Shown: piece by piece, positions 6,981-35,116 of the stretch
Position numbering within the stretch: the stretch's first letter is position 1
Layout of the letters: every line of letters begins with the position of its first letter
Assembly (NCBI GenBank): GCA_018816705.1
Contig: JAHIVG010000103.1
Span: forward strand, 1 to 60,952
Direction of reading: 5' to 3'
DNA from: Nanobdellota archaeon
Lineage (GTDB): Archaea > Nanobdellota > Nanobdellia > Woesearchaeales > JAHIVG01
DNA length: 60,952 bases
Notes under the pieces: generated by a model
The model's input: only the letters and a program-made list of their open reading frames with translations
Databases searched by the model: none
What the model was told of the DNA's origin: nothing
Position numbers and translations under genes: made by a program

Positions 6981-7025
6981 TAGAAGGAAAGCTTTAAAAA
7001 CAGCTTTCTTCTCTTCTGCATCGGT

Positions 7026-7175
7026 GGGCCCGTAGCCTAGTCTGGATAAGGCGACAGCCTTCTAAGCTGAGGGTTCAAGTATCAGCTTGGATCCGCTTAA
7101 TAGATCGGGGGTTCGAATAGTTGACGCTTGCGGCAACGGCCGAGAAGCGCAGCTTCGACAGTCCCCCCGGGCTCA
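7026..7175 (+). tRNA. tRNA-Arg(TCT) with two non-canonical introns (7070-7100 at 42/43; 7118-7161 at 59/60)
   Basis: Acceptor GGGCCCG/CGGGCTC, D-stem GCCT/AGGC, anticodon arm ACAGC-CTTCTAA-GCTGT after splicing, T-arm GGGGG-TTCGAAT-CCCCC; TTTAAAAA about 26 nt upstream. Confidence 0.92.
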
Positions 7176-7307
7176 CTTCATTTTCATGAACCGTTACCTT
7201 CATGCCCTTGTGAAATTGGTGATAGTGGCAGTGCGGCACTTGGTTATTCTGCTGTTCTTCAGCAAGAAGAAACCTTTATAAATCCAGCAACACTAATCAA
7301 TAAATAT

Positions 7308-7393
7308 GCGGGGGTGGCCAAGCGGTTTAAGGCGGTCGCCTGCAGAGCGATTATTCGGGGGTTCGAAACCAAGCGAGAGTCCCTCCCCCCGCT
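7308..7393 (+). tRNA. tRNA-Cys(GCA) with a 12-nt T-loop intron (7368-7379)
   Basis: Acceptor GCGGGGG/CCCCCGC, anticodon arm GTCGC-CTGCAGA-GCGAT, T-loop TTCGAA|T restored by removing ACCAAGCGAGAG; TTTATAAA about 26 nt upstream. Confidence 0.92.
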
Positions 7394-7529
7394 CTTTTCT
7401 TTAATTGTACACATGGTTCATATAACCTTAAATGGACATTAGTATCATATTGGAGAACTATTTGAATAGTAACTATACAAAACACTCAATCTAATAAGAT
7501 TTTTAAATAATACCCTATTAAATACAGCC

Positions 7530-8231
7530 ATGAAGAAAAAGCATCTTGAGAAATCTTCTTCCCCCAAGATACTAATCAAAGAAATTAAAAGGTGTAATCG
7601 AAATTTATTTATAATATCACTCTTTATTGCAGTAATATCTGGATTCATTACTTATATTCTGTTAATGACTATTTATGGATTAATTTTTTCTATTTGTGCG
7701 TATGGATTAGTTGGATACTTGCTTTACTTAGTTTATATTAGAAATCTTGATTATAACAAATCTCCAATTATTATTCAAATGAAAAGATTTAGTGAGAATA
7801 AAAAAAATGTCATACTTGAGCTGGTAAAAGAGTTAAATGAGCGCAAGAATAAGATTGAATTTCGAAATGTAATAATTACTTCTTCATGGTTATGCCAAAG
7901 AACATTTTTATTCTTTAAAGTATTTCATTTTAGTCAATTATATTGGGTATATATAAAGAAAACACGACATTATACAAATTTTATCCCTTCAGGAACGACT
8001 TGGGAATTAGTATTCAATTTGTTTGATGGTAAAGATATTATCGGTTACCCAACAAAATCTGGAAATAAAAAGGATTCCGAAACAATTATTGAAGAAATTC
8101 ATAAAAGAGTTCCTTGGGCTTTTTTTGGTTATAGTGATGAGATAAAAAATGAATGGCAAAATAATCCAATAGTAATAATAAATGCGGTCCATGAGAGAAT
8201 ATTAGAAATTCAAGAGCAATTAAAAAAATGA
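7530..8231 (+). CDS. Membrane protein (DUF6709-like) in an AT-rich islet
   Basis: Two TM helices; WVYIKKTRHYTNFIP and VPWAFFGYS motifs recalled for this family. Confidence 0.6.
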   Translation: MKKKHLEKSSSPKILIKEIKRCNRNLFIISLFIAVISGFITYILLMTIYGLIFSICAYGLVGYLLYLVYIRNLDYNKSPIIIQMKRFSENKKNVILELVKELNERKNKIEFRNVIITSSWLCQRTFLFFKVFHFSQLYWVYIKKTRHYTNFIPSGTTWELVFNLFDGKDIIGYPTKSGNKKDSETIIEEIHKRVPWAFFGYSDEIKNEWQNNPIVIINAVHERILEIQEQLKK

Positions 8232-9673
8232 AGAAAAAACCTATCCCTTTGATTGTATTTATACTTATTGGTGGATTTGTGGGTTTGATTATTCATATTA
8301 GCCCCCTTTTATTTGAGATGGATATATTTCGACAATTGACTCTAAAAGAAAGTGGTAGATACCAACCAGAATATATATTTGAATATGATTGTCAAGAATA
8401 TAACTTTTCATTATTGTTATATCAAAGTTATTATGAACATTTTCAATCAAGTAAGAAGCAGGTTTTTTCTTTATCAGATATGGATGAAAATGAATTCTTA
8501 GACAAATATTATGGGATTTTCTTATCTAATAAAATTGATGAAAAAATATTGGATGAAATTATTCAGATCATTCAGGAAGAAATATCTTCGGAGGATAGTG
8601 ATAATGTTGTACTAGCAATAGTTTCTTTTGTCCAGAATTTCGAGTATAATTGTGAAAAAGCAAATAGTTACGAGCTTTTTAACCTTGACCCTTACTATGA
8701 CTTGGAGTATAATACGAATTATCCTTATGAAACTCTGTATCATTCAATTGGTGTTTGCGAAGACACCTCGATTCTGTTAGCCAAGTTATTAATAAAATTG
8801 GGGTATGGTGTTGCCTTATTATATTTTGAAGATGAAAAGCATATGTCCGTTGGATTAGCTTGTGCTGATGAATACTCTAACTATGAATCTGGTTATTGTT
8901 ATATTGAAACAACTCTTCCAAGCCAGATTGGAATTGTACCATATATAGCAAATGAGATTGAGATAAAATCGACTCCAAATATAATTGAAATAGCTGAAGG
9001 AAAAACATTTAATAAAATTACACAAATAAAAAAGCAACAGGAAGAATTGAGCAATGAATATGGACCCGATATTTTGCAATTGGCCAAATGTCAAGAAATA
9101 GAACTACTCAAAGAAATTATACAGTTAGAAAAAGAGCTAGAACCATTTACAACAAAATTAATGAAATATGAAGAGCGAATAAATAAATCCGAAAATAAAG
9201 TTGATTATCAGGAATCAATACTTGATTCATACGACGATCAATATAAAGAGATTGGGATTATGGATACTGATTATCAATGGTCTCTTTATGAATATGATAG
9301 TGCATGTTTCTATATTATCACCGACGAACAATATGCACAGTGTACAAAATTGTACAACAAAGCTGAGGACAAACGACAGGCATTAAATAGCGAAATTGAT
9401 GATTTTAATAGTGGATATTACACAGCATATGAAGAGTATAATACCACGTTAAATGAATATAATAATCTTATTGATGAATATAATGAATTTACAGAGGCAT
9501 ACAATACTCAAATTGAACCATATAATGAAAAAATTGAGATATATAACAATCTATTGTTAGAGTCGTATAAAGAATGTTCTCCTGTAAAATATGAACCTGA
9601 AGAACAGACTACTGTAATAACAGTACACCCAATAGAACCCTCAATTGTGATCTCAGAGGTTAATTCTTATTAG
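8228..9673 (+). CDS. Membrane-anchored transglutaminase-like (Cys-His) protein with a C-terminal coiled coil
   Basis: YPYETL..GVCEDTSILLA..LGY..HMSVGL..YCYIETT; N-terminal TM; YN-rich heptads. Confidence 0.75.
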   Translation: MKKKPIPLIVFILIGGFVGLIIHISPLLFEMDIFRQLTLKESGRYQPEYIFEYDCQEYNFSLLLYQSYYEHFQSSKKQVFSLSDMDENEFLDKYYGIFLSNKIDEKILDEIIQIIQEEISSEDSDNVVLAIVSFVQNFEYNCEKANSYELFNLDPYYDLEYNTNYPYETLYHSIGVCEDTSILLAKLLIKLGYGVALLYFEDEKHMSVGLACADEYSNYESGYCYIETTLPSQIGIVPYIANEIEIKSTPNIIEIAEGKTFNKITQIKKQQEELSNEYGPDILQLAKCQEIELLKEIIQLEKELEPFTTKLMKYEERINKSENKVDYQESILDSYDDQYKEIGIMDTDYQWSLYEYDSACFYIITDEQYAQCTKLYNKAEDKRQALNSEIDDFNSGYYTAYEEYNTTLNEYNNLIDEYNEFTEAYNTQIEPYNEKIEIYNNLLLESYKECSPVKYEPEEQTTVITVHPIEPSIVISEVNSY

Positions 9674-10207
9674 ATCAATAAAAAAAAAGAAAGAAATAAA
9701 TACTAGATAATAATTTAGTGGAATAAAGTTATAATTTAAAAGAGGGTGAAAAAATATTATACTCAACTGAGGAAGCGGATTCTTAGTGTAGCGTCACTTT
9801 GGATTCACTTTCCCTCACTTTTTTCTACCTGACAGTGTACACAAAAAACATAACAATTTTTCTATCTTCTTCCTCGTTGTCAAGTGATCTCTGCTCGATG
9901 AGACGCTACTCAAATGACGGTTTGAGAGAGCTTGAATAATTAAGTGAGGGAAAGCGATGACTACGCTAGTACACATACTAGCCAGAAGTCCTCCAGCCAT
10001 TCTCCTAGCTTTAGGAGGGATTGGTTGGTTGCTTCACATCCAAGGATCTTGGTTACTCTTGGTCCTGGGTGTTGGATTGCAAATACTCTGGCTAGGAAAA
10101 TAGGCAAGTAAAGAAAGATTACAACAGGAACTCGGATTCATTTAATTAGTTGTACTTCTATCATATTTATAAAGTGGATAATTAACTCCCCATATCATCC
10201 ATTTTTC

Positions 10208-31863: not shown

Positions 31864-31992
31864 ATGAACGCGAGGGATTTCGTCTACGTCGACCCTAAAG
31901 ACAAGTGGAACTGGATTCTCGGCGCACTCGCAATATTCCTGCTCTGGTGGGGGCTGAAGACCATATTAAGAAGTCTCACTTTAGCATCATGA
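31864..31992 (+). CDS. Small membrane protein (42 aa) missing from the ORF track
   Basis: MNARDFVYVDPKDKWNWILGALAIFLLWWGLKTILRSLTLAS; TATA at about 31832; ATGA overlap with the next gene. Confidence 0.65.
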   Translation: MNARDFVYVDPKDKWNWILGALAIFLLWWGLKTILRSLTLAS

Positions 31993-32912
31993 AGAACGAT
32001 CACTACGTACTGCGAAGGGGAAACAAGCTCGAATACTGTGAAGCTGGACTGATCACCCCTGAGAACGCCCTCCTGCTAAGCCATCCTATAAGGCTGCAGA
32101 TACTCAGGCTGCTGGCCAAGAGGGAGATGTACCCTGCAGAGATAGCGTCGACGATCGGCGTGCACGAGCAGAAGGTATACTACCACATAAGGCAGCTTAT
32201 GAATGCAGGAATGCTCACTATCTACGAACGCAGCGAGATAAGGGGGACTGTGGCCAAGAGATACAAGGCTACAAGCCTCAACTTCTGCCTCAGCCTGGGA
32301 GGGGAATGGCAGAACGCCAGGAAGCTGCTATCGACCAAGAAAGAGAAGCTAAGCTATCTCTCACCCTTCATAGAGGGGACTGAGTTCAACTCGACATTCG
32401 TCGTCGGCAGCCCGGACCCGCACGGCCCGCACAAAGCAAGGGCGAGGGACTCCCACTATGCTGTTGAACTGGCCTTGTTCCTAGGCAACTACTGCTCTAC
32501 CAAGTCTCACTTTTCCACTATGCTGGACGTCGACATGAACATGAAGACTGATCCAGGCAATCTCATACTCGTCGGGGGGCCTGTCACGAACCTGCTCGTC
32601 GACTCGGTGAACAAGGCCTTGCCAGTGAGATTCAGCAAGAAGAAGCCTTGGGAACTGGTGTCCTCCACCACAGGGAAGAAGTACACCGAGGAGACCACAG
32701 GCATAGTGGCCAGGATACCTAATCCAGGATCAGACAGCCTCCTGCTCGTATTGGCAGGCATAAGGGCAGCAGGCACGAAATCAGCTGTCCTTGCAGTGAC
32801 GACCAACAAGGCGTTCAAGGACTTCAAGGGTGAGGAAAGCTATTGCAGGGTCGTGAACGGATTCGACCTGGACGGCGACGGGAGGGTGGACAATGTCGAG
32901 ATACTCGAATAG
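31989..32912 (+). CDS. ArsR-type HTH regulator with a C-terminal alpha/beta (S-layer-like) domain
   Basis: HPIRLQILRLL..YPAEIA..EQKVYYHIRQL; VVGSPDPHG, NLILVGGPVTN, GFDLDGDG. Confidence 0.85.
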   Translation: MKNDHYVLRRGNKLEYCEAGLITPENALLLSHPIRLQILRLLAKREMYPAEIASTIGVHEQKVYYHIRQLMNAGMLTIYERSEIRGTVAKRYKATSLNFCLSLGGEWQNARKLLSTKKEKLSYLSPFIEGTEFNSTFVVGSPDPHGPHKARARDSHYAVELALFLGNYCSTKSHFSTMLDVDMNMKTDPGNLILVGGPVTNLLVDSVNKALPVRFSKKKPWELVSSTTGKKYTEETTGIVARIPNPGSDSLLLVLAGIRAAGTKSAVLAVTTNKAFKDFKGEESYCRVVNGFDLDGDGRVDNVEILE

Positions 32913-33011: not shown

Positions 33012-33671
33012 ATGCTCTGGATCTTCAGAAAAAGCCGATTTGAGGCCCTATCGAGGCGTATAGACACTGCCTTAGGGGGTATGGAGAAGGACATCTACAG
33101 CCTCCAGGACTGGATAAGGCACCTCCATGACCGGGACGAGGGGCTTAAGAAGTCCCACCAGGAGCATATAGTCCTCACCAAGAGGGACATCACCCACCTC
33201 AACTCCTGGATAAAGTACCTCTACAAGCATATGTCGACGCTGCACGGCAGCATGAAGCAGCTCGGCGAAGGCCTGGAAGACATCAGGAAGACCAATGAAG
33301 AGATGTCTAAGAAGCTTAAGGAGATCGAGTCTAACTCTCACTTTTTACCTGTACAACCTAGGGCTCAGCTCAAGGCCCAGCCTATGGCTCATAAGCCTGG
33401 ATCCGGGCCTGTCTTAGCTGATCTCACCCTCCATGATGTCGGTGAGCTCTCACCTTCGGAGAAGGCGCTCATCATGGTGCTGTACACAGAACCAATACCA
33501 TCAAGCTATCATTCCATCGCCTCGAAATTGGGTTTGAATTACACAACTGTCAAGAACCTCATGTATAAGGCCAAGAAGAAGGGCTTTGTCATCAAGAGCC
33601 GGCTGAATGAGGATGGGGAAAAGGAATTCTACCTTGACAAGGCCATGCGGATCAAGGTATCCGGAAGATAA
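33012..33671 (+). CDS. Coiled-coil plus C-terminal winged-HTH DNA-binding protein
   Basis: Heptad N-terminal half; LSPSEKALIMVL..SYHSIASKLGLNYTTVKNLMYKAKKKG..EKEFYL; GAGGTGG site. Confidence 0.8.
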   Translation: MLWIFRKSRFEALSRRIDTALGGMEKDIYSLQDWIRHLHDRDEGLKKSHQEHIVLTKRDITHLNSWIKYLYKHMSTLHGSMKQLGEGLEDIRKTNEEMSKKLKEIESNSHFLPVQPRAQLKAQPMAHKPGSGPVLADLTLHDVGELSPSEKALIMVLYTEPIPSSYHSIASKLGLNYTTVKNLMYKAKKKGFVIKSRLNEDGEKEFYLDKAMRIKVSGR

Positions 33672-33690
33672 ACGGGGGATAAATAGGGGT

Positions 33691-33967
33691 GTGACACGTG
33701 TCACGGGTGTGTCACACTAGTGACATAGACGACAAACTGGTTATTGAGTGACACATCACTTGTGACGTGTCACTGTGTCACTTACCTGGTGTCACATGTG
33801 TGACACATCGATGACATCGACGGTAAACAAGCTCGACTTAACAAGCAGAAGATATGTGGATCCGGGCTTGTTCGTGGGATTTCCGGAAGTGACACACGTG
33901 TGTCACACTAGTGACATAGACGACAAACTGGGAAAACGGTGACACACGTCACGGGTGGAGTGACACA
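33691..33967. repeat. Array of about 16 GTGAC(AC)/(GT)GTCAC units with a 34-bp exact direct repeat
   Basis: GTGTGTCACACTAGTGACATAGACGACAAACTGG at 33707-33740 and 33898-33931; palindrome GTGACACGTGTCAC at 33691. Confidence 0.92.
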
Positions 33968-34470
33968 GAGTTTTCGAGAATTTTCTTGAGAATCTGCCTG
34001 GCGATCGCTCGCGAGGGGGTCTTGGAGGAGTCGGCTGTGAGGACCTTGAAGCCTGATTCCTCTGCTTCGTTCCCGCAGATATCAAGGTTCTCACATTCCA
34101 GGTTCTCCTTGATCTTCTCAGCAGAGTATTTCCTCTCCTCGAGGCGCCTCTTGAGGATGGCTGGAGAGCAGTGCAGGACTATACAGAAGTCGAACAGTGA
34201 GGGATCCATCACCTGGCTGAGGTGACCCTCGACGATGACTGACTTATCATCTTCCCTGGCCTTCTTCAGGATAGGGCCTAAACGCTCATTAAGGCTCTTA
34301 GAATCGACTATCTGACAGTCCCTCTGTTCATCATATCCCTCTGAGAGATCATGCTCCTTTATGAAGGCTGTAAGCCCTATCAGATGGCATCCTAGTAAAA
34401 GTGAGAGTTCCTTAGCTAATTCACTCTTGCCGGTGCCCGGCGTACCTGTGATGGCCAATATGAATCGCAT
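33949..34470 (-). CDS. Adenylate kinase, AK6/Fap7 type
   Basis: ITGTPGTGKS, VIVEGHLS, RRLEERKYSAEKIKEN; start set at MRFIL (34470). Confidence 0.9.
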   Translation of the reverse strand: MRFILAITGTPGTGKSELAKELSLLLGCHLIGLTAFIKEHDLSEGYDEQRDCQIVDSKSLNERLGPILKKAREDDKSVIVEGHLSQVMDPSLFDFCIVLHCSPAILKRRLEERKYSAEKIKENLECENLDICGNEAEESGFKVLTADSSKTPSRAIARQILKKILENSVSLHP

Positions 34471-34501
34471 GAGCCGATGCGGTGAAGTGACATTTATAAA
34501 A

Positions 34502-35116
34502 CTATGCTCGGCGCCTGACAAGCCAGGTGGCCAGCAAAGCCACTATGACCACTGCTCCACCGACGAGAAACCATATGACCGGCTCGGGGACGAGGGCTGA
34601 TCTGACTGTCTCCACAGCCTCGGGAATAGGGGCAGCTGCTAGGTCTGGAACGGCCTCTGCCATAGGCTGGGCAGCCTCTTTAGCCATGTCTGCAGACCCG
34701 GCCAGCGTCTTGAACACCGCAGGCCTCTTGAAGAATGCCAGGATGCCTGCTCCGACGACCAGTGCGGCGATGGACGGGAGGATGTGCCTTATCTTGACAG
34801 AGACACCTTCCTTGGTGTCAGGGGTGATGACTATGAACTTGTTGGCGAGGGTGTAATGGTTGACCTCCTTGCCCTTCTTGCTGTAGTGGAACTCCTCGAC
34901 GTTGACGAGCTTTGCAGCGAGGAGCTGCTGGAGGTTGTAATGCACAGTGGATAGGGGTATGTCCAGCTCCTTGGCGATCCCGGTCTCGGTAGCGTCCTTC
35001 TCAGCGAGGTGATCCAGTATCTTCCTGCATGTCTCGCTCGAGATGACGTTCGCAAGCTTCTTCGCCTTGTCCTCCTTCATCGAGACCAGCACAAAGGTCT
35101 CATTCTTCTTCTTCAT
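34502..35116 (-). CDS. ArsR-type HTH regulator with two C-terminal TM helices
   Basis: TCRKILDHL..TETGIAKELDIPLSTVHYNLQQL; two hydrophobic segments. Confidence 0.85.
   Translation of the reverse strand: MKKKNETFVLVSMKEDKAKKLANVISSETCRKILDHLAEKDATETGIAKELDIPLSTVHYNLQQLLAAKLVNVEEFHYSKKGKEVNHYTLANKFIVITPDTKEGVSVKIRHILPSIAALVVGAGILAFFKRPAVFKTLAGSADMAKEAAQPMAEAVPDLAAAPIPEAVETVRSALVPEPVIWFLVGGAVVIVALLATWLVRRRA

What the first reader, a model, noticed from the sequence alone, without database searches (positions are those of the whole stretch)
33012..33967. Coiled-coil/wHTH gene followed by a GTGACAC iteron array: candidate origin or centromere module
Seen: 20 nt after the stop, about 280 bp hold about 16 GTGAC/GTCAC units in both orientations, often as palindromic pairs. 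They form two blocks sharing an exact 34-bp repeat, separated by about 70 bp without the unit. The array sits between convergent genes, so it is not a simple promoter operator. Established: a DNA-binding gene next to its iterons is the layout of initiator/origin pairs (Rep, WhiP) and centromere-binding systems (AspA, SegB). No canonical ORB, orc1 or ParA is visible in the window. Inference: an undescribed chromosome replication, segregation or terminus module. This is my best candidate for a new system.
Basis: partly seen in the sequence, partly recalled or inferred. Interest (0 to 1): 0.88.

Follow-up and report, generated by a model that had tools for sequence, protein, structure and literature searches.

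The report
DNA-binding gene with its own site array
A small uncultivated archaeon carries a previously undescribed DNA-binding protein gene sitting next to a dense array of its probable binding sites, a pairing kept across hundreds of related genomes with the site sequence changing in step with the protein, which makes it a testable candidate for a chromosome-handling locus.

Summary
Window 33691-33966 holds all 12 GTGACAC of the window and 16 GTGAC/GTCAC units in two blocks sharing an exact 34-bp repeat. It is the densest hexamer cluster in the 1.74-Mb genome and the only place where the motif clusters.

The upstream gene (33012-33671) encodes a 108-residue helix, a disordered linker and a winged HTH. 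It belongs to no named family. Relatives occur through one order and neighbouring orders of Nanobdellota (DPANN) archaea.

In 37 of 50 homologous loci a short motif is clustered beyond local shuffles, and in 34 of these it lies inside or within 500 bp of the gene. The motif differs between clades (GTGACA, GGACA, GTAACAT, TAGACG, AATGCA, ATAATG, CAAACAG) and tracks the recognition-helix sequence. Sites are often phased at 10-11 bp and often lie inside the linker-coding part of the gene itself.

GC skew in two complete relatives does not switch at the module, no AT-rich unwinding element is present, and an Orc1-linked origin lies elsewhere. Main origin or terminus is therefore unlikely.

My best reading is a single-locus nucleoprotein complex that is centromere-like and probably self-regulating. 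The function is untested.

The parts
33012..33671 (+). Gene for a 219-aa coiled-coil + winged-HTH protein (the 'long' subfamily). Helix aa 2-109 (nt 33015-33338), disordered linker aa 110-147 (nt 33339-33452), wHTH aa 148-217 (nt 33453-33662).
   Evidence: ORF. AlphaFold2 on a 73-row alignment gave mean pLDDT 89.4. Foldseek hits are MarR/ArsR-type wHTH at E about 1e-4. No Pfam or NCBIfam family is above its cut-off.
33540..33578 (+). Codes the predicted recognition helix (aa 177-189, NYTTVKNLMYKAK), the segment whose sequence class tracks the motif class across relatives.
   Evidence: Helix H177-189; helix/motif table.
33691..33806 (.). Array block 1: 10 GTGAC/GTCAC units (7 as full GTGACAC), mixed orientation, several forming palindromes such as GTGACACGTGTCAC.
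33807..33888 (.). 82-bp spacer without exact units; 47.6% GC, so not AT-rich.
33889..33966 (.). Array block 2: 6 units. The last two overlap the 3' end of the convergent kinase ORF.
33707..33740 (.). First copy of the exact 34-bp repeat (GTCAC-N4-GTGAC followed by ATAGACGACAAAC). This composite unit is also present in the two same-family genomes G001 and G002.
33898..33931 (.). Second copy of the exact 34-bp repeat. One low-depth contig of another metagenome run joins 33706 to 33898, skipping the 191 bp between the two copies.
33949..34521 (-). Convergent Fap7/AK6-like P-loop kinase (probable start at 34470). It is the most frequently conserved neighbour of the family.
   Evidence: Pfam AAA_18 at 9.3e-27; NCBIfam PRK03839 at 1.8e-29, below its cut-off; best such match in G000. 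Neighbour in 28 of 51 loci and 33 of 61 loci.
31905..32912 (+). Upstream neighbour: ArsR-type HTH plus an S-layer-like C-terminal domain. Conserved next to the family in a minority of loci.
   Evidence: 18 of 51 loci and 16 of 61 loci.

Best explanation
The 219-aa protein is a sequence-specific DNA binder. A long N-terminal helix makes it an oligomer, probably a coiled-coil dimer. Two winged-HTH heads hang from it on flexible linkers of about 40 residues.

Its only clustered target in the genome is the array beside its own gene. In relatives the array lies inside the gene. The flexible tethers would let the heads use half-sites in either orientation and at varying spacing.

Many copies load side by side, on one face of the helix where sites are phased at 10-11 bp. 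They build one large nucleoprotein complex per chromosome. Because the sites sit at or inside the gene, the complex probably also throttles the gene's own expression.

I think the complex most likely serves as a chromosome 'handle': a centromere-like, partition or tethering site comparable to ParB/parS, omega/heptads or TubR/tubC. I think it is not the replication origin or terminus.

Shown here: the array, its uniqueness in the genome, the fold, the gene-array linkage across relatives, the motif/helix correspondence and the helical phasing.
Inferred: binding itself (I put it at about 0.85), higher-order assembly (about 0.7), autoregulation (about 0.6), and a centromere-like role (about 0.35-0.4).
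For: 1. The array is unique and extreme in its genome.

2. Linkage. Of 50 long-subfamily loci from the same order, 37 have a hexamer cluster reaching or exceeding 99 of 100 local-composition shuffles. Of these 37, 25 lie just downstream of the stop, 7 inside or overlapping the gene, 2 upstream within 500 bp, and 3 at 0.9-1.3 kb away. In 11 further loci, 9 of them from other orders of the class, 8 are significant.

3. The array follows this gene and not its neighbours. It stays on the gene's 3' side when the kinase gene lies upstream instead of downstream. It is also present in loci that lack the kinase.

4. Paralogue control. Of 20 loci of a shorter paralogue, 6 reach p<=0.01. Four of those clusters lie next to a second, long-type family gene upstream of the paralogue. 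The other two are borderline, with 6 copies each.

5. Motif class tracks recognition-helix class:
- NY[TS]TVKN with GTGACA
- K.KS[IV]RN with GGACA, across at least 6 GTDB-family codes
- NYGTIKNR with GTAACAT
- NT[AV]KNH.CH with TAGACG
- HSINT[VI]RV.MN with AATGCA
- N[TS].[RK]VYMN with ATAATG or ATAACG

6. Same-orientation neighbour spacing peaks at 10 bp (43) and 11 bp (35), with a harmonic at 20-22 bp.

7. In many relatives the sites lie in the linker-coding part of the gene and impose peptide repeats there: SVTKSVT, GQVRDKSGTS, VQTGVQT.

8. The fold is a long helix, a disordered linker and a wHTH.

9. The layout matches known centromere-binding-protein systems. I read passages of PMC9499535 on 7-bp heptads in mixed orientation with at least 4 contiguous needed, and of PMC6009700 on tubC split into blocks of short iterons with TubR both repressing and segregating.
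Against: No binding experiment exists.

No ParA/ParM/TubZ-type motor gene is among the conserved neighbours in 61 loci. The only recurrent neighbour NTPase is a Fap7-like kinase, which looks like the housekeeping copy.

The distance of the module from the best Orc1/Cdc6 gene varies from 82 to about 327 kb. Bacterial chromosomal parS sites are usually origin-proximal (listing abstract of PMC7333895).

Thirteen of 50 loci show no significant cluster. These include the complete genome G087.

Helix/motif correspondence is confounded by shared ancestry. Clades differ in everything, so it is weaker evidence than the physical linkage.

An autoregulatory operator alone would also explain why the sites stay close to the gene.
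Confidence: 0.42

Rival explanations
1. Pure autoregulation or titration. The array is an oversized operator or roadblock through which the protein sets its own level, and perhaps that of the convergent or co-oriented Fap7-like kinase gene. It would have no structural role for the chromosome.
For: Sites are always at the gene: upstream in some lineages (L032, L060, L064, L192, L198), inside the coding region in others, downstream in most. No partner motor gene is linked. The wHTH is closest in fold to MarR/ArsR repressors. The kinase gene is linked in two different arrangements, convergent downstream or same-strand upstream, in 33 of 61 loci.
Against: The loci carry 10-25 phased sites, which in my judgement is far more than a simple repressor operator would need. 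Most arrays lie beyond the stop codon between 3' ends, where they cannot act on a promoter (25 of the 37 significant clusters). Known centromere-binding proteins also autoregulate (PMC6009700 passages), so autoregulation does not exclude the main reading.
Confidence: 0.25
2. A secondary or conditional replication origin. The protein would act as a lineage-specific initiator or origin-marking factor, as with lambda O, whose iterons lie inside the O gene.
For: The binding-site arrays lie inside the linker-coding part of the protein's own gene in many relatives. This parallels ori-lambda mapping within the O gene (PMC5043065 passages). Two blocks flank a spacer in G000. In G001 the spacer is about 200 bp and AT-rich. 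In G278 contig C1 the orientation-corrected skew turns positive for about 10 kb right after the module, and 728 kb is a secondary optimum for a switch.
Against: The G000 array has no AT-rich stretch. Its lowest 40-bp GC is 0.40, and 70% of equal-sized stretches of the window go as low or lower.

In complete G087 (909,956 bp, sampled as 20 stretches of 20 kb) skew is negative on both sides of the module at 711 kb, and the sign changes lie near 65-90 kb and 600-630 kb. In complete G018 (1,301,350 bp, 20 stretches of 20 kb) the large-scale sign changes lie near 110 kb and 700-720 kb, while the module is at about 437 kb.

G087 has a roughly 650-bp AT-rich region with an inverted GTTCCA...GAAAC pair directly upstream of its best Orc1/Cdc6 gene.

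The protein has no similarity to Rep, Orc1, Cdt1 or lambda O in the searches run.
Confidence: 0.1
3. A replication-fork barrier or terminus module of the RTP-Ter kind: a winged-helix protein gene next to inverted repeats that arrest forks.
For: The window's cumulative GC skew peaks at about 35-36 kb, 1-2 kb from the array. Gene orientation changes from mostly plus to mostly minus across the region. The protein is a winged helix and the sites are inverted repeats. The RTP-Ter layout itself is recalled, not checked in a paper.
Against: Gene orientation alone explains about 30% of the window's skew variance. Adding a switch helps little and fits 24 kb as well as 36 kb. In G087 and G018 the module is not at either large-scale skew switch. 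Many arrays in relatives are same-orientation repeats at 10-11 bp rather than inverted pairs.
Confidence: 0.05
4. The array is bound by a different factor, or is an RNA-level or recombination-generated repeat, and its position next to this gene is only inherited synteny.
For: No binding data exist. The f1-family genomes share an extra conserved element (ATAGACGACAAA) next to the palindromes that could belong to another protein. One run shows a 191-bp deletion between the 34-bp repeats, so the array does recombine.
Against: The motif changes between clades while its position at this gene persists through rearrangements of the neighbours. Same-orientation phased repeats cannot form hairpins, and no Rfam family matches. 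The array is single-copy in the genome. The protein has no relatives in the plasmid, phage or IMG/VR collections, though that search could reach only close relatives.
Confidence: 0.1

Closest known systems
TubR / tubC (type III plasmid and prophage partition)
   Same: A winged-HTH protein gene lies next to a centromere made of short iterons split into separate blocks. The protein spreads into a large nucleoprotein structure and also represses transcription (PMC6009700, passages read).
   Different: tubC lies upstream of tubR and is coupled to the tubulin-like GTPase TubZ in one operon. Here most arrays are downstream of or inside the gene and no motor gene is linked. No sequence relation was seen, and TubR is not among the Foldseek rows listed. 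The long N-terminal coiled coil is absent from TubR as far as I recall.
omega (ParB) / heptad parS of pSM19035
   Same: The centromere consists of contiguous 7-bp units in mixed direct and inverted orientation, and several adjacent units are needed for function (PMC9499535, passages read). This resembles the GTGACAC heptamers in both orientations.
   Different: Omega is a ribbon-helix-helix protein (recalled) and works with the ParA-type ATPase delta. Its heptads are contiguous. Here units are spaced 7-14 bp apart in G000 and 10-11 bp apart in many relatives.
Bacteriophage lambda O protein / ori-lambda
   Same: The protein's binding repeats lie inside its own gene (PMC5043065, passages read). 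In many relatives of this family the sites lie in the linker-coding segment.
   Different: Ori-lambda has four 19-bp inverted repeats followed by a 40-bp A+T-rich region. No AT-rich element is present here and skew gives no origin signal. There is no homology to O.
Archaeal SegAB and pNOB8 AspA-ParB-ParA
   Same: Both have an archaeal site-specific DNA-binding protein whose centromere-like sites sit next to its gene. For SegB this comes from the abstracts of PMC8682754 and PMC12139799, seen only in the search listing.
   Different: Those systems include a ParA-type ATPase in the same operon. Here ParA-like genes lie on other contigs. No similarity to SegB or AspA turned up, though I ran no direct pairwise comparison.
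RacA / ram sites of Bacillus subtilis (recalled, not checked in a paper)
   Same: An HTH domain joined to a long coiled coil binds clustered chromosomal sites and anchors the chromosome.
   Different: The domain order is reversed. The ram sites are spread over a large origin-proximal region rather than forming one dense array at the gene. No homology was tested.
MarR/ArsR-family winged-helix repressors
   Same: These are the best structural matches of the C-terminal domain (Foldseek E 1e-4 to 4e-3, aligned over about 70-80 residues).
   Different: No Pfam family passes its cut-off. In the model a 108-residue N-terminal helix and a disordered linker precede the wHTH. That this differs from the MarR dimerisation scheme is recalled, not tested here. 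The target is a single array of 16 units rather than one operator.

Membership tests
Iteron-type replication origin with cognate initiator (lambda O/ori, plasmid Rep/iterons, Orc1/ORB, WhiP/oriC3) | Repeated initiator-binding sites next to or inside the initiator gene | tested here: met
   16 units after the stop in G000; arrays at or in the gene in 34 of 50 order-level loci.
Iteron-type replication origin with cognate initiator (lambda O/ori, plasmid Rep/iterons, Orc1/ORB, WhiP/oriC3) | A+T-rich DNA-unwinding element beside the repeats | tested here: not met
   In G000 the intergenic region is 48.7% GC and the spacer 47.6%. The lowest 40-bp GC is 0.40, which is not unusual for the window. G001 does have an AT-rich spacer.
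Iteron-type replication origin with cognate initiator (lambda O/ori, plasmid Rep/iterons, Orc1/ORB, WhiP/oriC3) | Strand-composition polarity switch at the site (chromosomal origin) | tested here: not met
   No sign change at the module in the complete genomes G087 and G018, each sampled as 20 stretches of 20 kb. Ambiguous in G278 contig C1 and in the window.
Iteron-type replication origin with cognate initiator (lambda O/ori, plasmid Rep/iterons, Orc1/ORB, WhiP/oriC3) | Initiator homologous to Rep, Orc1/Cdc6, Cdt1/WhiP or lambda O | tested here: not met
   No such family appears in the Pfam, NCBIfam, PDB-sequence or Foldseek results.
Iteron-type replication origin with cognate initiator (lambda O/ori, plasmid Rep/iterons, Orc1/ORB, WhiP/oriC3) | Supports autonomous replication or shows a marker-frequency peak | not testable with these tools
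   Needs wet-lab work or genome-wide read-depth profiles. Read laying covers at most 20 kb, and here it gave contigs only.
Prokaryotic partition cassette (centromere + centromere-binding protein + motor NTPase) | Cis array of repeated sites adjacent to the gene of the protein that binds them | tested here: met
   Binding itself is inferred, not shown.
Prokaryotic partition cassette (centromere + centromere-binding protein + motor NTPase) | Motor NTPase (ParA/SegA, ParM, TubZ) encoded in the same operon | tested here: not met
   No such cluster among conserved neighbours in 61 loci. ParA-like genes of G000 lie on C88, C9 and C53.
Prokaryotic partition cassette (centromere + centromere-binding protein + motor NTPase) | Binding protein of a known centromere-binding class (ParB-HTH, RHH, TubR or AspA-type wHTH) | tested here: inconclusive
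   It is a winged HTH, but the listed Foldseek matches are MarR/ArsR-type. I made no direct comparison with TubR or AspA.
Prokaryotic partition cassette (centromere + centromere-binding protein + motor NTPase) | Stabilises or positions the replicon | not testable with these tools
   Requires experiment.
MarR/ArsR-type winged-helix transcription regulators | Pfam family membership above the gathering score | tested here: not met
   The best hit is Sigma70_r4_2 at 21.5 bits against a cut-off of 25.7. No MarR or ArsR family is listed for this protein.
MarR/ArsR-type winged-helix transcription regulators | Winged-HTH fold | tested here: met
   AF2 elements H148-159, H166-173, H177-189, E194-198, E204-208. 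Foldseek to MepR, SlyA, AbfR2 and others at E 1e-4 to 1e-3.
RTP-Ter / Tus-Ter replication terminator | Located at the replication terminus (skew switch opposite the origin) | tested here: not met
   In G087 and G018 the module is not at either large-scale skew switch.

The most novel reading that the evidence does not exclude
The module is the chromosomal centromere, or kinetochore-like anchor, of Nanobdellota (DPANN) archaea. It would be a new partition or tethering system built from a coiled-coil/winged-helix adaptor whose binding-site array is embedded in and beside the adaptor's own gene. It would work either with an unlinked orphan ParA-like ATPase or without any dedicated motor, for example by tethering the chromosome to a cell-envelope or host-contact structure. 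A less likely but equally new reading is an Orc1-independent secondary origin organised like ori-lambda.
Probability: 0.3. Interest if true: 0.9.

Novelty: new variant of a known kind. Interest (0 to 1): 0.76.

Why it matters
In the papers my searches returned, nothing addresses how the ultra-small, mostly uncultivated DPANN archaea organise, segregate or anchor their chromosomes. Their genomes also hold many conserved genes of unknown function.

This module gives a concrete, sequence-defined protein-DNA pair. It is conserved across an order and into neighbouring orders, and its specificity has diversified naturally into at least six or seven motif classes. That makes it directly testable in vitro by EMSA, DAP-seq and helix swaps, without cultivating the organisms.

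It also provides a natural series for studying how a winged-helix protein and its sites co-evolve.

The embedding of the site array in the disordered-linker coding region of the binding protein's own gene has, to my knowledge, a described parallel mainly in ori-lambda inside the O gene. Seeing it recur with different motifs in many archaeal lineages is unusual.

If the locus turns out to be a centromere or an origin, it would be a new type for Archaea.

Tried and rejected
**Multi-copy or assembly repeat: rejected.** The motif clusters nowhere else in the 114 contigs. Independent metagenome runs hold the same sequence.

**Mobile-element module: no support.** There was no tblastn match in the plasmid or phage collections, and none in IMG/VR with the single protein. 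These searches reach only fairly close relatives.

**RNA element: no support.** Rfam gave only one chance-level hit, inside the gene. Same-orientation phased repeats in relatives argue for DNA sites.

**Sigma-70-type promoter and terminator scan:** not informative for an archaeon.

**Motif avoidance elsewhere in the genome:** only mild. I counted 55 observed against 73.5 expected by the maximal-order Markov model, about the 3rd percentile of heptamers. I do not build on it.

**Interaction of the protein with the neighbouring Fap7-like kinase:** Complex prediction gave no verdict (score 0.00, controls not run). This is no evidence either way.

**RNA evidence:** no RNA holder was listed among the sequencing runs. 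The runs laid were contigs only, so depth and transcript ends cannot be read.

**Tree-based independent contrasts** for helix class against motif class were considered and not run. Each class looks like one clade, so there would be too few independent pairs.

**Co-occurrence with the orphan ParA-like gene** was considered and not run. E-values alone do not separate divergent long-subfamily members from the short paralogue.

**OG0000296.** A preprint on 208 complete Nanobdellota genomes (10.64898/2026.05.13.725050, passages read) mentions a phylum-wide single-copy winged-HTH orthogroup, OG0000296. I could not tell whether it is this family or its paralogue. Its data files and supplements were not available to me.

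**Literature searches** that found no description of this module. Papers outside the held library, and supplements, were not seen.

Full report
**1. What is there**

The gene at 33012-33671 (+) ends with TAA. Twenty nucleotides later a 276-bp stretch begins (33691-33966). It contains all 12 GTGACAC/GTGTCAC heptamers of the window; shuffles of the whole window gave a mean of 4.51 and never reached 12. It also holds 16 of the window's 73 GTGAC/GTCAC pentamers.

The units form two blocks:
- Block 1, 33691-33806, 10 units.
- Block 2, 33889-33966, 6 units.
- The blocks are separated by 82 bp and share an exact 34-bp repeat, 33707-33740 = 33898-33931.

Several units pair into palindromes such as GTGACACGTGTCAC. 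The array lies between convergent genes, and its last two units overlap the last codons of the minus-strand ORF 33949-34521.

In the whole assembly (G000, 1.74 Mb, 114 contigs, 94% complete; the window is contig C35):
- There are 67 heptamers, 12 of them here.
- No other place has three within 300 bp or two within 60 bp.
- Among 34,151 windows of 300 bp this is the densest non-AT hexamer cluster in the genome.

The array is single-copy, not a dispersed or assembly repeat.

**2. The protein**

AlphaFold2 on a 73-row alignment (mean pLDDT 89.4) gives three parts:
- one uninterrupted helix, residues 2-109;
- a disordered linker, residues 110-147;
- a winged helix-turn-helix, residues 148-217, with the recognition helix at 177-189.

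Foldseek against the PDB finds only generic MarR/ArsR-type winged helices, at E 1e-4 to about 4e-3 over about 70-80 aligned residues. A profile search of PDB sequences finds weak HTH and coiled-coil noise. No Pfam or NCBIfam family reaches its cut-off. The ESM Atlas returns only 'hypothetical' clusters from Nanobdellota and Woesearchaeota.

The closest named homologue, at 49% identity, is a hypothetical protein of a 'Nanoarchaeota archaeon' MAG. This is the only organism name that any tool gave. A profile search of 1.84 billion representatives finds 1,143 proteins at E<=1e-3, 287 at <=1e-10 and 48 at <=1e-30.

**3. The comparative test**

With profile A1, 294 of 401 genomes of the same order have a match at E<=1e-5. 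This tally includes 15 genomes flagged as unpublished, from which I fetched nothing.

The matches fall into two groups:
- A 'long' subfamily of 200-340 aa, with a conserved W..HL...H..H...W..YL pattern in the N-terminal helix. The window's protein belongs to it.
- A shorter paralogue of about 165-180 aa.

With the long-subfamily profile A2 at E<=1e-18, 49 of 301 genomes sampled across the phylum match. Of these, 27 are from other orders of the same class.

I fetched 50 long-subfamily loci of the order, each about 3.6 kb. For each I asked whether any non-AT hexamer is clustered in 300 bp beyond 100 shuffles that preserve local composition. The results:

| Set | Loci | Significant (p<=0.01) | Where the clusters lie |
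|---|---|---|---|
| Long subfamily, same order | 50 | 37 | 25 just past the stop codon, 7 inside or overlapping the gene, 2 within 500 bp upstream, 3 at 0.9-1.3 kb downstream |
| Further long-subfamily loci (9 from other orders) | 11 | 8 | 3 downstream, 2 upstream, 1 in the gene, 2 farther than 500 bp |
| Short paralogue | 20 | 6 | 4 beside a second, long-type family gene upstream of the paralogue; 2 borderline with 6 copies |

Thirteen of the 50 long-subfamily loci have no significant cluster. One of these, L034, has GGACA sites split between the gene and the downstream region.

Rows left out of the count of 50:
- L015 (G027), which turned out to be the short paralogue.
- L012 (G001), where the gene is cut by a contig end, although its GTGAC array is plainly there.
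- The first-fetch duplicates L006-L019.

For scale, in G000's own genome only 32 of 34,151 windows (about 11 places) hold 7 or more copies of a hexamer.

**4. The motif changes with the protein**

The clustered motif is clade-specific, and each motif class has its own recognition-helix signature:

| Motif | Where seen | Recognition-helix signature |
|---|---|---|
| GTGACA(C) | G000, G001, G002, G038, G157 | NY[TS]TVKN |
| GGACA(T) | at least six family codes: G021, G148, G032, G154, G222, G278, G004, G063, G067, G324, G230 | K.K[ST][IV]RN |
| GTAACAT | G006, G211 | NYGTIKNR |
| TAGACG | G134, G312, G376, G346, G265, G181 | NT[AV]KNH.CH |
| TAGTCGACTA | G009 | not grouped |
| AATGCA | G182, G092, G295 | HSINT[VI]RV.MN |
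| ATAATG / ATAACG / GTTATA | G076, G236, G288, G066, G248 | N[TS].[RK]VYMN |
| AATTACG | G016 | not grouped |
| GTCCCA | G018, G198, G213 | not grouped |
| CAAACAG | other orders | not grouped |

Shared ancestry confounds this correspondence, so I give it no p-value. Two points go beyond ancestry:
- A 5-7-bp motif is kept in non-coding DNA across family-level divergence.
- The array stays with this gene when the neighbourhood changes. It remains on the gene's 3' side in the six loci where the kinase gene lies upstream rather than downstream, and it is present in loci without the kinase.

**5. Architecture of the arrays**

Same-orientation neighbouring sites are spaced mostly 10 bp (43 cases) or 11 bp (35 cases) apart, with a harmonic at 20-22 bp. 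That is one helical turn.

In many relatives a second array lies inside the gene, in the segment coding for the disordered linker. There it imposes peptide repeats: SVTKSVT for GTGACA, GQVRDKSGTS for GGACA, VQTGVQT for CAAACAG. The DNA sites therefore appear to be selected and the linker tolerates them.

The three genomes of the window's own family share a longer composite unit: GTCAC-N4-GTGAC followed by ATAGACGAC(A)AA.

**6. Is it an origin or a terminus?**

- G000 has two Orc1/Cdc6 genes on contig C9. One is at the very contig start, so its upstream region is missing.
- In genomes with long contigs, the module lies 82 kb (G278), 123 kb (G087), 209 kb (G295) and about 327 kb (G018) from the best Orc1/Cdc6 gene.
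- In complete G087 (909,956 bp, sampled as 20 stretches of 20 kb), GC skew is positive from about 90 to 600 kb and negative elsewhere. The module at 711 kb has negative skew on both sides: -0.070, -0.081 and -0.078 in the three nearest stretches.
- G087's best Orc1 gene, at 588 kb, sits next to a skew switch. It is preceded by about 650 bp of very AT-rich DNA and an inverted pair GTTCCAAAAGAAAC.../...GTTTCACTTGGAAC. From memory this resembles ORB elements.
- In complete G018 (1,301,350 bp, 20 stretches of 20 kb, contiguous over 380-500 kb), the large-scale switches lie near 110 kb and 700-720 kb. The module, with 13 GTCCCA, is at about 437 kb. Skew there is noisy, drifting from about 0 to -0.06 with no sign change.
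- In G278 contig C1 (782 kb, fetched whole), skew is negative for 0-726 kb whatever the gene orientation. It turns positive for about 10 kb right after the module at 727 kb. The best-fit switch is at 764 kb, and the contig ends at 782 kb, so this case is ambiguous.
- In the window, cumulative skew peaks at 35-36 kb. Gene orientation explains about 30% of the variance, and an added switch fits 24 kb as well as 36 kb.
- The G000 array has no AT-rich element.

Together this argues against the main origin or terminus. It does not exclude a minor origin.

**7. Neighbours and partners**

The only frequently conserved neighbour is a Fap7/AK6-like P-loop kinase, present in 28 of 51 loci and 33 of 61 loci. 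It is usually convergent downstream and sometimes immediately upstream on the same strand. It is the best such gene in G000 and so probably the housekeeping copy.

A complex prediction for the two proteins gave no verdict.

No ParA, ParM or TubZ-type gene is among the conserved neighbours. G000 does encode ParA-like ATPases elsewhere, including an apparently orphan one at C88:15182-15973.

**8. Interpretation**

The evidence best fits a dedicated protein-DNA pair. An oligomeric coiled-coil protein with flexibly tethered winged-helix heads loads in many copies on one array per chromosome and forms a large complex there.

Its position at or inside its own gene makes self-regulation likely. The number, phasing and block structure of the sites go beyond an ordinary operator. 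They resemble prokaryotic centromeres: mixed-orientation heptads of pSM19035 (PMC9499535) and the split tubC iteron blocks bound by winged-helix TubR (PMC6009700). The in-gene arrays recall ori-lambda inside the O gene (PMC5043065).

My probabilities:
- This protein binds the array: about 0.85.
- Centromere-like or chromosome-organising role: about 0.35-0.4.
- Autoregulation only: about 0.25.
- Secondary origin: about 0.1.
- Fork barrier or terminus: about 0.05.
- Array unrelated to the protein: about 0.1.

**9. Novelty**

My literature searches found no description of this family or module. Known archaeal systems (SegAB, AspA-ParBA, HpaAB) appeared in the listing and all involve ParA-type partners, judging by their abstracts.

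The general kind, a DNA-binding gene next to its own iteron array, is well known. What is new here is the protein family, its chromosomal single-copy setting in DPANN archaea, the diversification of specificity, and the recurrent embedding of the sites in the linker-coding region. I therefore rate it a new variant of a known kind, with function still open.

Noticed in passing
window 33706/33898 (run X4): One 268-nt contig (depth 2.85) of a biofilm-metagenome run from another study joins 33706 directly to 33898. This skips the 191 bp between the two 34-bp repeats, and that run has no depth over 33755-33868. It is possibly a natural one-block variant made by recombination between the repeats, or a low-coverage assembly effect.
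   Followed up: partly
L134 (G213), L136 (G198), L147 (G018), L133, L135, L140, L144, L146: In 8 of 20 loci fetched for the short paralogue, a second, long-type family gene lies immediately next to it, on the same strand upstream or on the opposite strand. In G213, G198 and G018 that gene carries arrays of 10-13 GTCCCA/TCCCA units. The two paralogues may work together.
   Followed up: partly
protein P0065: A 740-aa protein with 12 tandem copies of the family's wHTH segment (Pfam HTH_24 matched in 11 stretches): a polydactyl winged-helix protein of unknown source.
   Followed up: partly
G000 contig C88:15182-15973: A 263-aa ParA/Soj-like ATPase (AAA_31, E 1.7e-46) with no ParB-like gene beside it; the next gene is convergent. 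It is a candidate unlinked partner for a centromere-like system.
   Followed up: partly
L124 (G087:C1:585001-605000), locus 1830-2730: Directly upstream of the best Orc1/Cdc6 gene of a complete relative there is about 650 bp of extremely AT-rich DNA. It is followed by a 20-nt inverted pair (GTTCCAAAAGAAACAAAGGT / ACCTTTGTTTCACTTGGAAC) 197 nt apart. This looks like a canonical origin with ORB-like elements and lies close to a GC-skew switch.
   Followed up: partly
G278:C1 (782 kb): There is a strikingly uniform negative GC skew (about -0.07) and positive AT skew over more than 640 kb, independent of gene orientation. The best Orc1/Cdc6 gene at 645 kb is not at a GC-skew switch, although the AT skew dips there.
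   Followed up: partly
window 7000-10000: A low-GC island (30-33% against about 52%) encodes a DUF6709 protein (7530-8231) and a 481-aa protein with a transglutaminase-like DUF553 domain (8228-9673). It is possibly acquired DNA.
   Followed up: partly
G000 contig C109:1-300: This is the second-densest hexamer cluster of the genome (AGGCCT, 11 copies in 300 bp), at a contig end. I did not examine it.
   Followed up: no
window 31905-32912 and 34502-35116: Two further winged-helix (HTH_20/ArsR-type) genes flank the module. One is fused to an S-layer-like C-terminal domain, the other to a C-terminal hydrophobic HVO_1552_C-like region. The first recurs beside the family in 16-18 loci.
   Followed up: partly
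run X2, window 33011: One contig of a second groundwater run carries a 2-nt insertion (AT) just before the gene's start codon; the sequence is otherwise identical.
   Followed up: no
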